A DNA stretch of 64,000 nucleotides. It comes from Giardia intestinalis (lineage: Eukaryota). The notes beneath the pieces are model-generated. The model had not been told where the DNA came from, ran no database searches, and saw nothing but the letters and a program-made list of their open reading frames with translations. Within the stretch, counting starts at the first letter, position 1. Every line of letters starts with the position of its first letter. Positions 44,519 to 62,400 of this stretch are shown piece after piece. The stretch lies in NCBI GenBank assembly GCA_000002435.2, contig CM018793.1; one strand, given 5' to 3'. The position numbers and the translations under genes are program-made.

Positions 44519-46684
44519 ATGTTCGAAAAAATTCTCTTCACAAACTGCATATTGCAATTGGCCTGGATAATACAAACAGTAGCTGGGGCATGCACACCGG
44601 GAGAAACTGGTCCAACTAAGTGTAAAACCTGTGACGCTATCATAGGCACAGACAGCTATTGCAGCGAGTGTGACCAGGCGGGCGAAGGACCCATCAATGG
44701 AGTATGTACAAGCGAGCTAAGCGGCAATACTTGCGCTAATAAGATATGCACCCAGTGCGTAAAGAATTACTTCTTATATAAAGGAGGATGCTATAAATTT
44801 GCCGAATCACCGGGAAACATCATATGTGAAGACGCGATAGATGCAGCTGGCGGAACGGACGGAGTGTGTACCACGTGCAAGGCTGCTAACGGCTTCTTCA
44901 AGCATCCCGCCCCTGCAGAAACAAAACAGTCCTGCATTGCTTGTAATGAAACGGCCGGAGTCGTGGACAGTGACACCACGTACAAGGGTACATCCAACTG
45001 CCTGAAGTGTGACCCGCCCGCTGCTGCAATTGGAGCTAGAGCAGATAAAATGGCAGTGTGCACTCTTTGCGATCAGACTAAGTATCTCAAGGAAAGCGCA
45101 TGTGTCGAGAAAGCAGGGTGCGGCGCCAACATGTTTGGTAAGCCAAGTGTACAGGACGGGAATAAATGCATTGCGTGCGGGGATTCAAATGCTGGTATAG
45201 AGGGTTGCGCTGAGTGCACTGCGCCTGATGAACCAACTATTAAACCCACCTGTACAAAATGCACCGGTAACAACTACCTGAAAACCACAAGCGAAGGCAC
45301 GTCGTGCGTACAAAAGGAACAATGTAATGGGGCCTACTTTCCTAATGATAGTGTAGACGGTAAGAAACAGTGCGTTTCGTGTGGCGATGCAACTAATAAA
45401 GGCATAACCGACTGCACTGCATGCAATCTACTCAGCAGTCCGCTAGAAACAGTTCTTATTAAATGCTCTGCCTGCAGAAGTGGGAAGAAGCCTAATGAAG
45501 ATGGATCTGCGTGCGTCGATGCCCCAGGGCCCTCTCCAGAAGAATGCTCGATCGAAGGATGTCAGATATGTTCGGATGACAAAAAGACGTGTGATAAGTG
45601 CCAATCAAACAACTATCTCACTCCAACAAAACTCTGCATATCTGATTGCAAGAAGCTCGGAAACTATTATTTAGCTACCGAGCAAACAACTGGGAGCTGC
45701 AGGGAGTGCGCTATGGTTAATTGCAAAGAGTGTACTGAGAACGGTAAGTGTGGAATATGCAACGATGGCTTTTACCTCCTGAATGAGGAATGTAAGCCAT
45801 GTAATGATAGTTGCAAGACGTGCGAGGGTGGAGTGGAATCTGATAAGTGCACTAGCTGTAAGTCTGGAAGTGCTCTTATTTATGCAGGCAACGGAAATAC
45901 AGGCACATGTAGTCTTGGTTGCATACCCAAATCAAGTGCAGATCCTGGGTCTTGCAAGACATGTGATTTAGCTATTGATGGGACAAAGTATTGCTCAGTG
46001 TGTAATGTGGATAAAGAATACCCTCAAAACGGAGCTTGTGCTGGCATCAAGGCGCGTGCATCCTCATGCCAAGATGGAAATGTTAATAATGGTGTATGTA
46101 GTAAGTGCGAGACAGGGTTCTTCCTTATGAATGGGGGATGTTATGAAATAACCAAGTATCCCGGGAAAACAGTTTGCAGTAAGACAGCGGCTGATGGTAC
46201 ATGTGAGACACCCGCGACCGGCTTTAGTCTAAGTAGCAATACACTCAAAGCTTGCTTTGAAGGTTGTGCTAAGTGTGCTACTGGTGACGATTGTTCTGAA
46301 TGCATCAGCGGCTATGTATCAGGTAGTACCCCTAATAGTTGCGAAAAGTGTAGTACTGGTTGTGCTACATGCTACCCTACTGCCACGACTTGCACATCTT
46401 GTCTTGCTGGATACTATCAATCTGGACCTAAGTGCATTGCCTGTGATAAAGATGATTCTACTATCAAAGGTATTAGTAATTGCTTGAACTGCGCCCCTCC
46501 ATCGTCTGGTAGTGGCTCTGTCCTCTGTTATCTCATGAAAGGTGCCGACAACAACGGCGGGAGCACGAACAAGAGCGGCCTCAGCACAGGCGCCATAGCG
46601 GGGATCTCTGTCGCTGTCATCGTTGTTGTGGGGGGCCTCGTCGGCTTCCTCTGCTGGTGGTTCGTGTGCCGGGGCAAGGCGTGA
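44519..46684 (+). CDS. vsp: variant-specific surface protein (VSP)
   Basis: Signal peptide [24 protein letters not shown]; ~40 CXXC motifs; GGCY motifs ([16 protein letters not shown]); C-terminal TM + invariant tail [38 protein letters not shown] poly(A) signal 8 nt after stop. Confidence 0.92.
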   Translation: [721 protein letters not shown]

Positions 46685-46691
46685 CTTAGGT

Positions 46692-59462: not shown

Positions 59463-62400
59463 ACCCCAGTCCACCGAGAGGTCAGGGGCACAGACGACAC
59501 CGCCACCCTCCAGCCTCACCGCCCCATGCCCCAGCCTCCCCACCAGCTGGCCCGCTGAGACCCAAGTGACCGCGACTGTAGAGCGCTGCCCGGGCCACAG
59601 CCAGACGGACACCGAGGGGCGGCCAGCGGAGAGCCCGATGGCAGCCCCTGACAGACGGGAGCATCTAAAAAAGACAGCGACCCGAGCTTCACCCACCACG
59701 AAGGAAGACCAAGGAGAGGCGCCATTGGTGGACGACGCAAGTGGGCAAGTGAGCTAAATCCCAGGGTGAGCGGCCGGGGAAGGTGCCAGGTTTTAGATAT
59801 GCTAATAAAGAGGAGTCCCTGTTTGCTGTCTAGAACCAGCCATCGTCTCCAAACTGATCAGAAAGTTGGGGCAGCTCATGTAAGACCTCTGGACCGCCCC
59901 CATAAGCGATGTCTAGCGACACAGCACACTGATATTAGGTGTGCAGGCTCTCTCTACTGGATGCTCTACGGACTGCTGGCAATGTTCGAGAAAATCCTCT
60001 TTGGAATTTTGATTCTGCAAGTAGCACGGGCAGCAAAAACATGCACAGAGGCTAGCAGTGACCCGCAAACAGGACAGTGTAAACAGGGTAAATGCATTAG
60101 CATAGGTGGAGATAGAGTTTGCACTGACTGTGCTAAACCTGGAGAGGTGCCCATTAATGGGGAATGTAAGGATAAAAGTGATGGGCTTATCACAACTGCC
60201 GGATGTGAAAAAGTTGATGGAGCTCTCGATGAGCATTCAACCACATGTGGAAAGTGTACTAAGGCTGGATACTTCCTCCACAAAGGTGGATGCTATGTAC
60301 AAGCAGCACCTCCTGGACAAACCGTTTGCAAAAGTGCGAGTAGTAGTGCAGGACTCTGTGAAACATGCAATGACGCTAACGGGTTCTTCAAAAATATGGG
60401 TGCTAGCGATAACACCCACCAATCTTGCATTGCCTGCAATGAGGCAGATACGATTGATGGTTTCAGAGGTGTTCCGAACTGCAAAGTGTGTACTCCTCCT
60501 GAAGGCCCCGGCTCTGCCACATGCACTACGTGTGAGGGCGAATACTATTTATTAGCTGTAACGCCTTCTAGTTGCGTTGAAAAGACGCAGTGTAAGACAG
60601 ACCACTTCCCTGTCACAGCTAAGGGTATCAAAAAATGCGTCCCGTGTGGAGACACCGACGCCGGTGGCATAATTGACTGTAAGACATGTACTCTCAAGGA
60701 AGCTCGCGGATTAGCTGGAGAGTCTGCTATCAAGTGCACTACGTGTAACGGCGGAAAGACACCCAATGACGAGGGATCTACATGTGTCGATGCCCCAGAA
60801 CCTCCGCCCTCTGACTGCCCCGTCGAGAACTGCCAGAAATGTTCTGCAGACAAGAAGACATGTGAGGAGTGCAAGGACAAGAACTATCTCACTCCGACAG
60901 GGATGTGCATAAAATATTGCGAATATATTCTAGGCTACTACAGCAGCACAGAGGGCGGCAAAGGGATCTGTAAGAAGTGCGAGGTCAAGAATTGCGTTGT
61001 GTGTGATCCGAACGGCAAATGCGGTTTCTGCGAAGATGGATTCTATGCTGACGATGCTGGGATATGCCAGAAGTGTGACGGTAGTTGCAAGAATTGTAAG
61101 GGAAACACTGCTAATGATTGTACTGAGTGCAAACCTGGAACCATCCTTGACTATGCAAATGGGCAGAAGGGTAAATGCGCTCCTGAATGTGTTGTCAATA
61201 CAGATAAAGCCACTGGGAACTGTAAAGCATGTGATCTAATTGTTAAAGGCACAAGGTACTGCTCTGCATGTAGCCAGGACAATGAGTATCCCCAGAACGG
61301 TGTCTGTGCACCGAAACCAAGTGGGCGGGCTGCGACATGCACCTCTCAAGGAACCGGTGTCTGCAATTCGTGTGCTAATGGGCTCCTTCGGATGAACGGA
61401 GGGTGCTACGAAGATGAGAAGTACCCTGCGCACAGTGTATGTGCAACAGTGGCGACAACTGGTGGGACTTGTGATAGACCTATGCCAGGGTTTAACTTAA
61501 ATAATGAAAACAACCTTGTAATATGCCCTGAAGGCTGTAAGACGTGTAATACTGCAAATGAATGTACAGAATGTATGGATGGATACATAGCATTCAGTAA
61601 CGTCAAAGCTTGCACGAAATGTCATGAAAGCTGCTACACCTGCGAAACCGCGGCTGCCACATGCAAAGTATGTGCTCGTGGATATTATAAGGAGAGTAGC
61701 GATAGTGGACCGTGCAAGAAGTGCTCTGAGGGGCTCGCTGGGTGCAGACAGTGCACGGTGTCATCCACCAGTGCGTTCATGTGCCTCGAGATGGGTGATA
61801 GTACTGGTGACAACAACGGCGGGAGCACGAACAAGAGCGGCCTCAGCACAGGCGCCATAGCGGGGATCTCTGTCGCTGTCATCGTTGTTGTGGGGGGCCT
61901 CGTCGGCTTCCTCTGCTGGTGGTTCGTGTGCCGGGGCAAGGCGTGACTTAGGTAGTAAACGCATCTCCTATTACATCTGCTTACTCTATAGCTTCGACGT
62001 TGCTATTCTACGAGGTTACCGGGTTACCCGTTTCCGAGCACCCGTCGGATTCTGCGGCAGGACTGTGCCTTCGTATCTCATCGTACCCACTTCTGTATGG
62101 CAACAAACACCCCCTACTATGGCGTAGTTGCTCCACCCAGAGGCAGGTGACACATAGATCCTTGGCTCTGATAGGCGCCTCTGTGCCCCACCTCTCGCAC
62201 CTTAGCAGCCCGACTACAGCACCGTGGGGTTTGGGCACCCTCGGGCAGAGTGTGTTGGGCATTTGATCAGCTATGCACAAGGCCCGTGACAGTCAAGGCC
62301 TGCAGCGCTGATCTATCGCCTTAGGTACTCGGTGCATCCAGAGACGACCACTGGAAGAACGGCTAGTCACACCTGTCAGCCATTAGTGTCTTGCGGCATC

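What the first reader, a model, noticed from the sequence alone, without database searches (positions are those of the whole stretch)
44519..61960. Three VSPs with divergent bodies but an identical 3' module (last ~45 codons + poly(A) signal + ~20 nt)
VSP 44519-46684 differs from the palindromic pair along most of its length (different signal peptide tail, different CXXC spacing). From …[42 protein letters not shown] through the stop, the AGTAAAC signal and 'gcatctcctattacatctgct' the nucleotide sequence is identical. Similarity then ends abruptly. A sharp boundary like this suggests 3' end homogenisation by gene conversion, or a functional 3' element such as a target for the RNAi/miRNA-based VSP silencing proposed for Giardia.
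Basis: partly seen in the sequence, partly recalled or inferred. Interest (0 to 1): 0.5.

Follow-up and report, generated by a model that had tools for sequence, protein, structure and literature searches.

The report
Recently copied tail shared by VSP genes
Neighbouring Giardia surface-antigen (VSP) genes with very different bodies carry a letter-perfect 173-base tail, most likely because one gene recently copied it from the other; this is one instance of the already described, recombination-prone conserved 3' end of the VSP family, not a new element.

Summary
VSP-A (44519-46684, +) shares an exact 173-nt block with VSP-B (55462-57426, -) and VSP-C (59982-61946, +). The block is 45 codons, the stop codon and 35 nt downstream. 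B and C lie in a perfect inverted repeat of at least 4.5 kb, so only two sequences are independent.

Outside the block the bodies are 45-49% identical in protein, synonymous sites are saturated (pS 0.78), and the longest exact match is 14 nt. Inside it, dS is 0.

The block is the known VSP 3' cassette: transmembrane helix, CRGKA tail and the VSP-specific extended poly(A) signal. Family constraint gives only about 78-85% nucleotide identity:
- 21 pairs within Giardia isolate P15 average 85%.
- A VSP encoding the identical 38 residues differs at 19 of 114 nt.
- VSP-A's closest relative in P15 has diverged as much in the block (pS 0.47) as in the body (0.50).

Other VSP pairs share blocks with different edges. 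The best explanation is therefore a recent interlocus gene conversion laid over a conserved cassette. A fixed small-RNA target does not explain the perfect identity, although such target sites have been reported in this region.

This is already known biology and of low interest. The block's GC3 of 0.87, against 0.42-0.45 in the bodies, is a modest extra.

The parts
44519..46684 (+). VSP-A gene: 721 aa, 31 CXXC motifs, Inr-like ctaATGTT start. Same sequence as XP_001705450.1 / KAE8304970.1 of Giardia WB.
   Evidence: ORF. Pfam VSP PF03302, E=5e-149. Exact-sequence look-up. Motif counts.
55462..57426 (-). VSP-B gene: 654 aa from the MFEKILF ATG. Identical copy of VSP-C in the left arm of the inverted repeat. 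Tail-to-tail with VSP-A, with 8777 nt between the two stop codons.
59982..61946 (+). VSP-C gene: 654 aa, 27 CXXC motifs, gcaATGTT start. 100% identical to WB protein P0121 (KAE8304974.1 / KAE8304975.1).
46547..46719 (+). Shared 173-nt block, copy in VSP-A: 45 codons (46547-46681), stop (46682-46684), 35 nt of 3' flank (46685-46719).
   Evidence: 100% identity family D1/I2. Anchored comparison. dS = 0. GC3 0.87 against 0.42 in the body.
55427..55599 (-). Shared 173-nt block, copy in VSP-B.
   Evidence: Inverted repeat I2, 100% complementary to 46547-46719.
61809..61981 (+). Shared 173-nt block, copy in VSP-C.
   Evidence: Direct repeat D1, 100%.
46684..46700 (+). VSP-specific extended poly(A) signal ACTTAGGTAGTAAACGC, which overlaps the last base of the stop codon. 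The AGTAAA hexamer is at 46692-46697. The same element is at 61946-61962 (+) and 55446-55462 (-).
   Evidence: Sequence read. Matches the published consensus ACUUAGRUAGURAAYRY, found in all 136 WB VSPs (bioRxiv 10.1101/2022.03.07.483299). Conserved in all 10 independent VSP 3' ends examined.
46646..46663 (+). 18-nt core TTCCTCTGCTGGTGGTTC (F L C W W F of the membrane anchor). It is invariant, synonymous sites included, in all 10 independent VSP 3' ends from WB, P15, DH and GS.
   Evidence: Column conservation; sequences listed.
53408..57946 (.). Left arm of the perfect inverted repeat that carries VSP-B.
   Evidence: the repeat finder I1: 4539 nt, 100% complementary, 1515-nt spacer.
59462..64000 (.). 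Right arm of the perfect inverted repeat that carries VSP-C. It runs to the window end, so its true length is unknown.
   Evidence: the repeat finder I1.

Best explanation
The block is the standard 3' cassette of a Giardia VSP gene. It encodes the juxtamembrane linker, the transmembrane helix and the CRGKA cytoplasmic tail. The stop codon, the VSP-specific extended poly(A) signal and the predicted cleavage region follow.

This cassette is the only stretch alignable between otherwise divergent VSP genes. It therefore serves as the homology for non-allelic (interlocus) gene conversion. A recent non-reciprocal transfer between VSP-A and one member of the B/C pair, 8.8-15 kb away, overwrote one cassette with the other. 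The result is 173 identical bases with no time for divergence.

The sharp edges lie at or just beyond the limits of alignable homology between the two genes. They are not the borders of a dedicated regulatory element. B and C are identical because they are arms of a perfect palindrome of a published type.

Shown here: the identity and its edges, dS = 0 against saturation, divergence of the block in the closest P15 relative, event-specific boundaries in other pairs, and a GC3 jump in the block.

Inferred: that the process is gene conversion, its direction, and that the high GC3 reflects long-term GC-biased conversion.
For: 1. The 173-nt block is 100% identical, while the bodies are 45-49% identical in protein with pS 0.78.
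2. The family baseline is much lower. The 117-nt 3' ends of 21 within-P15 pairs average 84.7% (range 80-100). WB against P15 averages 82.8%. The median over 55 pairs of the 138-nt block is 78%. Adam et al. 2010 report 190 distinct 117-nt 3' ends among 254 WB vsp genes (PMC2996952).
3. The pattern is that of concerted evolution. VSP-A and P15 protein P0001 align without gaps over 721 codons at 83% nt identity. Their blocks are only 82-85% identical, with pS 0.47 against 0.50 in the body.
4. Protein constraint alone is insufficient. P0126 encodes the identical 38 C-terminal residues but differs at 19 of 114 nt. Of 19 WB VSP proteins sampled, only A and B/C have this tail.
5. Boundaries differ from event to event. 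P15 P0001 and P0007 share a 430-nt block from -278 to about +145. P15 P0011 and P0132 (bodies 52% identical in protein) share 137 of 138 nt, in a block from about -165 to +14. P0007 is a mosaic of C-like and A-like segments.
6. GC3 is 0.87 in the block against 0.42 and 0.45 in the bodies.
7. Recombination among vsp genes anchored on the 3' conserved region was detected with GENECONV (PMC2996952). VSPs are enriched among gene-conversion genes in assemblage A, and their conserved regions were proposed as the homology used (PMC12669663).
Against: There are only two independent sequences in the window, and WB chromosome-scale contigs could not be retrieved. I therefore could not count how many other WB VSPs carry this exact block.

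The identity runs 19 nt past the family-conserved extended poly(A) signal, to +35. A canonical conversion tract needs homology beyond its ends, so an older shared flank or a microhomology-mediated event must be assumed.

Donor and recipient cannot be told apart. P0001 shares no flanking synteny with VSP-A, so it is a closest relative, not a proven positional orthologue.

High GC3 could also come from codon or RNA-level selection.
Confidence: 0.8

Rival explanations
1. The block is a nucleotide-level functional element. It could be a small-RNA (miRNA or siRNA) target together with the poly(A) signal, held identical by purifying selection, with its edges marking the element.
For: Published work places miRNA target sites here. 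The miR2 site spans 20 nt of coding sequence and 10 nt of 3' UTR, miR6 lies across the stop codon, miR10 at -62 to -32, and miR69 at -100 to -75 (PMC2583053; PMC3937270). The miR2 seed complement UUAGG is present at +2 to +6. An 18-nt core and the extended poly(A) signal are invariant across assemblages, synonymous and non-coding sites included.
Against: Synonymous divergence of the block between VSP-A and its closest P15 relative equals that of the body (pS 0.47 against 0.50). Typical VSP pairs are 78-85% identical here. An identical protein tail is encoded with 19 of 114 nt different. Shared blocks in other pairs have other edges. The predicted miR2 duplex is no better than with shuffled miR2 (42% of shuffles are at least as stable). 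The block has no excess RNA structure (z = +0.84). Selection can explain the conserved islands but not 173 of 173 identity.
Confidence: 0.07
2. The identity is an assembly or polishing artefact. Reads from many similar VSP 3' ends mis-mapped and pulled both loci to a common consensus.
For: VSP genes and identical pairs are documented to break or confuse Giardia assemblies (PMC2996952).
Against: The exact 721-aa VSP-A protein is on record under both an older RefSeq accession (XP_001705450.1) and the newer KAE8304970.1. The identity covers 19 nt of flank outside the family-conserved poly(A) signal and stops cleanly. Comparable blocks occur in the independent P15 assembly.
Confidence: 0.05
3. The transfer was templated by a transcript. 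A VSP mRNA or cDNA served as repair template, so the 3' edge of the copied tract reflects the end of the mRNA.
For: The identity ends at +35. That lies inside the published range of VSP cleavage sites, 16-38 nt after the stop codon (bioRxiv 10.1101/2022.03.07.483299). The block thus covers essentially the whole 3' UTR.
Against: With AGUAAA at +8, the commonest signal-to-cleavage spacing of 13-16 nt predicts cleavage near +24, about 11 nt before the edge (PMC9014877). The 5' edge is not explained. The P15 P0001/P0007 block runs to about +145, far beyond any short VSP 3' UTR. No poly(A) remnant follows the block.
Confidence: 0.04

Closest known systems
Conserved 3' domain of Giardia vsp genes: about 110-117 nt encoding roughly 38 aa (membrane anchor plus CRGKA), used as a universal probe, primer site and BLAST query (Adam et al. 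2010, PMC2996952)
   Same: Same position and same encoded sequence, ending in CRGKA. Both window genes match Pfam VSP over its full length.
   Different: The family domain is similar, not identical (190 distinct sequences among 254 genes). Here the identity is perfect and extends about 20 nt further on each side, from -137 to +35.
VSP-specific extended poly(A) signal ACUUAGRUAGURAAYRY (bioRxiv 10.1101/2022.03.07.483299)
   Same: Present in all three copies and overlapping the stop codon (46684-46700). AGUAAA lies 7 nt after the stop, close to the published median of 6 nt.
   Different: The shared block continues 19 nt beyond this motif, which family conservation does not explain.
Identical inverted vsp pairs, head-to-head or tail-to-tail, with 2-4 kb between ORFs (Adam et al. 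2010)
   Same: B and C are identical, head-to-head, with 2555 nt between their start codons. The 5' identity ends abruptly 520 nt above the ATG, inside the published range of 158-729 nt.
   Different: The 3' identity runs at least 2054 nt past the stop, to the window end. The published head-to-head pairs show 141-203 nt. Each arm also carries a 5S rRNA gene.
Interlocus gene conversion and recombination among vsp genes (GENECONV evidence in Adam et al. 2010; VSP enrichment among conversion genes in PMC12669663)
   Same: A patch of identity inside divergent paralogues, anchored on the conserved 3' end, with paralogues closer to each other than to the related gene in another assemblage.
   Different: This is one concrete, apparently very recent tract between neighbouring genes, with mapped edges. 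The papers I read did not describe a GC3 step.
3' boundary of VSG gene conversion in Trypanosoma brucei, which lies in the conserved C-terminal coding region and 3' UTR (from my own knowledge, not checked here)
   Same: A conserved 3' end of a variant-antigen family supplies the downstream homology for recombination between otherwise divergent genes.
   Different: In T. brucei the conversion moves the variable body into an expression site and drives switching. In Giardia switching is epigenetic or post-transcriptional, and here only the constant tail was copied.

Membership tests
[quoted passage not shown] | Cysteine-rich ectodomain with many CXXC motifs and few or no CXC motifs | tested here: met
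   VSP-A: 12.1% Cys, 31 CXXC, 0 CXC. VSP-C: 11.9% Cys, 27 CXXC, 0 CXC. Pfam PF03302, E=5e-149 and 8e-120.
[quoted passage not shown] | Conserved C-terminal region of about 38 aa with a hydrophobic anchor, ending in CRGKA | tested here: met
   The C-terminus reads ...[31 protein letters not shown], followed by the stop codon, in all three copies.
[quoted passage not shown] | Extended poly(A) signal ACUUAGRUAGURAAYRY within a few nt of the stop codon | tested here: met
   ACTTAGGTAGTAAACGC at 46684-46700, and the equivalent positions in B and C.
[quoted passage not shown] | Initiator-like PyAatgTT at the start codon | tested here: met
   ctaATGTT in A and gcaATGTT in C. Motif as defined in PMC2996952.
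Identical inverted vsp pair (Adam et al. 2010) | Two identical ORFs in inverted orientation, separated by about 2-4 kb, with flanks identical up to an abrupt divergence point | tested here: met
   Arms are 100% identical. There are 2555 nt between the start codons and an abrupt inner edge 520 nt above the ATG. The outer edge lies beyond the window.
Interlocus (non-allelic) gene conversion tract | A block of identity bounded by divergent sequence in paralogues whose synonymous sites are otherwise saturated | tested here: met
   173 of 173 nt identical against pS 0.78 in the body. The longest exact match outside the block is 14 nt.
Interlocus (non-allelic) gene conversion tract | Phylogenetic discordance: the paralogues are closer in the tract than either is to the related gene in another lineage | tested here: met
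   WB A and C are 100% identical in the block. WB-A and P15 P0001 are 82-85% identical in the block and 83% in the body. Caveat: orthology rests on sequence only, with no flanking synteny.
Interlocus (non-allelic) gene conversion tract | Non-reciprocal transfer with an identifiable donor and recipient | not testable with these tools
   This needs closely related isolates or population data. No closer relative of either gene was found outside WB.
Giardia miRNA target site in vsp 3' ends (miR2 type) | Seed complement in the 3' UTR next to the stop codon, with a favourable miRNA-target duplex | tested here: inconclusive
   The seed complement UUAGG is present at +2 to +6. The best duplex energy, -23.1 kcal/mol, is no better than with shuffled miR2 (mean -22.6; 42% of shuffles are at least as stable).
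Giardia miRNA target site in vsp 3' ends (miR2 type) | Argonaute-associated small RNAs and repression that depends on the site | not testable with these tools

The most novel reading that the evidence does not exclude
The perfect 173-nt identity may have a regulatory consequence. VSP-A and the B/C pair would share about 148 identical 26-mers, whereas ordinary VSP pairs share only an invariant core of about 18 nt. Dicer products from one transcript would then match the others perfectly. In the homology-dependent silencing model this would link the three genes into one cross-silenced, co-regulated unit. Recurrent 3' conversion would thereby rewire which VSPs exclude each other. A related possibility is that GC-biased conversion, and not protein or RNA function, maintains the GC-rich cassette.
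Probability: 0.08. Interest if true: 0.55.

Novelty: already known. Interest (0 to 1): 0.15.

Why it matters
The finding matters little on its own. It is a clean, coordinate-level example of how the constant tail of a variant-antigen family is shuffled between genes while the antigenic bodies stay distinct.

It carries a practical warning. VSP 3' ends cannot be used as neutral markers or as unique tags without checking for converted blocks. Short reads and small RNAs that map to this block cannot be assigned to one gene.

The step in GC3 at the block edge suggests that GC-biased conversion could be measured in an organism whose sexuality is debated. That would need a genome-wide analysis.

Tried and rejected
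- Retrieving the WB chromosome-scale context for other VSP genes failed. Exact look-ups of P0121, VSP-A and P0025 returned nothing. The number of WB genes carrying this exact block could not be counted.
- A scan of JGI metagenome contigs for the VSP stop-codon-plus-poly(A)-signal pattern found nothing.
- Additional file 4 of Adam et al. 2010, held as machine-read PDF text, was too garbled to count identical C-termini reliably. I used 19 WB proteins from the searches instead.
- Flanking synteny between the window and the P15, DH and GS loci was sought with blastn and tblastx. Only VSP-to-VSP matches and one short repeat appeared.
- The miR2 duplex prediction gave no signal above shuffled controls.
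- RNA folding of the block showed no excess structure, and Rfam found no family in the block.
- Simple common descent of the block, without transfer, was rejected because dS is 0 next to saturated synonymous sites.
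Full report
**What is there.** The 44.5-62 kb part of the window holds three genes that match Pfam VSP (PF03302) over the full model: VSP-A 44519-46684 (+), VSP-B 55462-57426 (-) and VSP-C 59982-61946 (+). Each has 27-31 CXXC motifs, no CXC motif, an initiator-like PyAatgTT start and a CRGKA end.

Exact-sequence look-ups identify them as annotated VSPs on a 4.0-Mb contig of Giardia WB. VSP-A is XP_001705450.1 / KAE8304970.1. VSP-B and VSP-C are KAE8304974.1 / KAE8304975.1.

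B and C are not independent. They lie in the arms of a perfect inverted repeat, 53408-57946 and 59462-64000. It is 4539 nt long and 100% complementary, has a 1515-nt spacer, and is truncated by the window end. The finding therefore compares two sequences, not three.

**The observation.** The repeat finder reports a single 173-nt block at 100% identity: 46547-46719, 61809-61981, and the reverse complement of 55427-55599. It consists of 45 codons ([11 protein letters not shown]...CRGKA), TGA, and 35 nt of flank.

Outside the block the two genes share no exact match longer than 14 nt. A codon alignment of the bodies gives 49% protein identity, pN 0.37 and pS 0.78, which is saturated. Identical residues use the same codon in only 122 of 262 cases. 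In the block the same codon is used in 43 of 43 cases and dS is 0.

**What the block is.** It is the known conserved 3' end of vsp genes. Adam et al. 2010 describe a conserved region of about 38 aa (membrane anchor plus CRGKA). They also describe a conserved 110-117-nt 3' sequence, used as a probe, as a universal primer site and as a BLAST query (PMC2996952).

The first 17 nt from the last base of the stop codon, ACTTAGGTAGTAAACGC, match the VSP-specific extended poly(A) signal ACUUAGRUAGURAAYRY. That signal is reported for all 136 WB VSPs (bioRxiv 10.1101/2022.03.07.483299).

Giardia cleaves most often 13-15 nt from AGUAAA (PMC9014877). Measured VSP 3' UTRs are 16-38 nt. One VSP with its signal 8 nt after the stop, as here, has a 24-nt UTR. 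The block thus covers the whole predicted 3' UTR and ends roughly 11 nt past the likely cleavage site.

**Is family conservation enough to explain the identity?** It is not. I collected ten independent VSP 3' ends from P15, DH, GS and an ENA assembly.
- Within P15, 21 pairs of 117-nt ends average 84.7% identity, with a range of 80-100%.
- WB against P15 averages 82.8%.
- The median over 55 pairs of the 138-nt coding block is 78%.
- Adam et al. count 190 distinct 117-nt ends among 254 WB genes.
- Of 19 WB VSP proteins sampled, only A and B/C have this 38- or 45-residue tail.
- P0126 encodes exactly the same last 38 residues, yet differs at 19 of 114 nt, in 17 of 38 codons.

Protein constraint therefore leaves ample synonymous freedom. 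Some conservation at the nucleotide level is real. An 18-nt core, TTCCTCTGCTGGTGGTTC, and the extended poly(A) signal are invariant in all ten sequences. These islands make up a minority of the block.

**Evidence for transfer as against constraint.** The closest relative of VSP-A is P15 protein P0001. The two align without gaps over 721 codons at 83% nt identity, and homology stops about 19 nt after the stop codon. Their blocks are only 82-85% identical, with pS 0.47 against 0.50 in the body. The block has therefore diverged between lineages as fast as the rest of the gene, yet is identical between two unrelated paralogues inside WB. That is the signature of concerted evolution.

Other pairs show the same process with different edges:
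- P15 P0001 and P0007 share a 430-nt block from -278 to about +145. It is 100% identical from -278 to about -160 and about 97% identical in the 3' flank, but only about 85% identical in the transmembrane part. This pattern suggests later patch conversion by other family members.
- P0007 as a whole is a mosaic of C-like and A-like segments.
- P15 P0011 and P0132 lie on different contigs and their bodies are 52% identical in protein. They share 137 of 138 nt, in a block from about -165 to +14.

Variable edges argue for recombination tracts, not for one fixed element.

GC3 jumps from 0.42 (A) and 0.45 (C) in the bodies to 0.87 in the block. The block is also GC3-rich in the A- and E-assemblage genes sampled. 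This is compatible with long-term GC-biased conversion, but that link is an inference.

Published work agrees. GENECONV detected recombination among vsp genes anchored on the 3' region. VSPs are enriched among genes with conversion tracts in assemblage A, and the authors suggested that the conserved regions supply the homology (PMC12669663).

**The small-RNA alternative.** This idea is already in the literature. The miR2 site spans 20 nt of coding sequence plus 10 nt of UTR. miR6 sites lie across the stop codon, miR10 sites at -62 to -32, and miR69 sites at -100 to -75.

The miR2 seed complement UUAGG is present here at +2 to +6, inside the extended poly(A) signal. The best predicted duplex (-23.1 kcal/mol) is no better than with shuffled miR2. 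The block shows no excess RNA structure (z = +0.84), and Rfam finds no family in it.

Such sites may contribute to the conserved islands. They cannot account for 173 of 173 identity, given the divergence from the P15 relative and the P0126 control.

**Weak points.**
- WB chromosome contigs could not be fetched. I do not know how many other WB VSPs carry this exact block.
- A metagenome scan for VSP 3' ends found nothing.
- The identity runs 19 nt beyond the family-conserved poly(A) signal. A textbook conversion tract needs homology outside its ends, so an older shared flank (as in the P15 pair) or a microhomology-mediated event has to be assumed.
- The direction of transfer is unknown.
- P0001 shares no flanking synteny with VSP-A.
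- A polishing artefact is unlikely. The same VSP-A protein is recorded under an older and a newer accession, and none of the other 17 WB VSP proteins sampled has this tail. Only raw reads can exclude an artefact.

**Verdict.** The functional-target reading explains the family's conserved islands but not the block.

Everything here belongs to described biology: the conserved 3' domain, the extended poly(A) signal, identical inverted pairs and vsp recombination. I rate it as already known and of low interest. The GC3 step, and the possible cross-silencing consequence of perfect identity, are the only threads that might repay a genome-wide follow-up.

Noticed in passing
window 54145-54264 (-) and 63144-63263 (+): Rfam finds a full-length 5S rRNA gene (88.3 bits, E=5e-18) in each arm of the VSP inverted repeat, about 1.2 kb downstream of VSP-B and VSP-C. 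The palindrome therefore duplicates a 5S gene along with the VSP.
   Followed up: no
window 53408-57946 and 59462-64000: The perfect inverted repeat extends at least 2054 nt past the VSP stop codons and runs off the window end. The published head-to-head identical vsp pairs show much shorter 3' identity, 141-203 nt.
   Followed up: partly
window 46001-64000 compared with 1-46000: G+C rises from about 0.44-0.51 in the housekeeping part to 0.52-0.61 downstream of VSP-A. At 50.8-52.3 kb, ORFs of 150-226 aa overlap on both strands. None of them has Pfam support where tested, so they look like by-products of GC-rich non-coding DNA.
   Followed up: partly
L003 12766-12970 (isolate DH, about 0.5-0.7 kb downstream of VSP P0006) and window 59294-59498: tblastx shows 76-84% similarity, in opposite orientation, between DNA downstream of a DH VSP and the region straddling the inner edge (59462) of the right palindrome arm. 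This may be a small VSP-associated repeat.
   Followed up: no
L001 2640-3060 and L002 6390-6815 (P15): Two P15 VSPs share a 430-nt 3' block. The usually most conserved transmembrane part is its least similar section (about 85%). The upstream coding part (100%) and the downstream flank (about 97%) are more similar, as if the cassette had been re-converted later by other paralogues.
   Followed up: partly
window 46914-47582 (-): The first ORF downstream of VSP-A, convergent with it, has a weak glutathione S-transferase N-terminal domain match (GST_N_2, E=6.5e-6). The mechanical ORF starts at TTG, so the real start is probably an internal ATG.
   Followed up: no
one search compared: VSP-A did not appear under its own id in the homology search. 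The collection nominally clusters at 90% identity, yet it is filed under the 83%-identical P15 protein P0001 as cluster representative. For VSPs, the identity shown for the best hit can understate whether the query itself is in the collection.
   Followed up: yes
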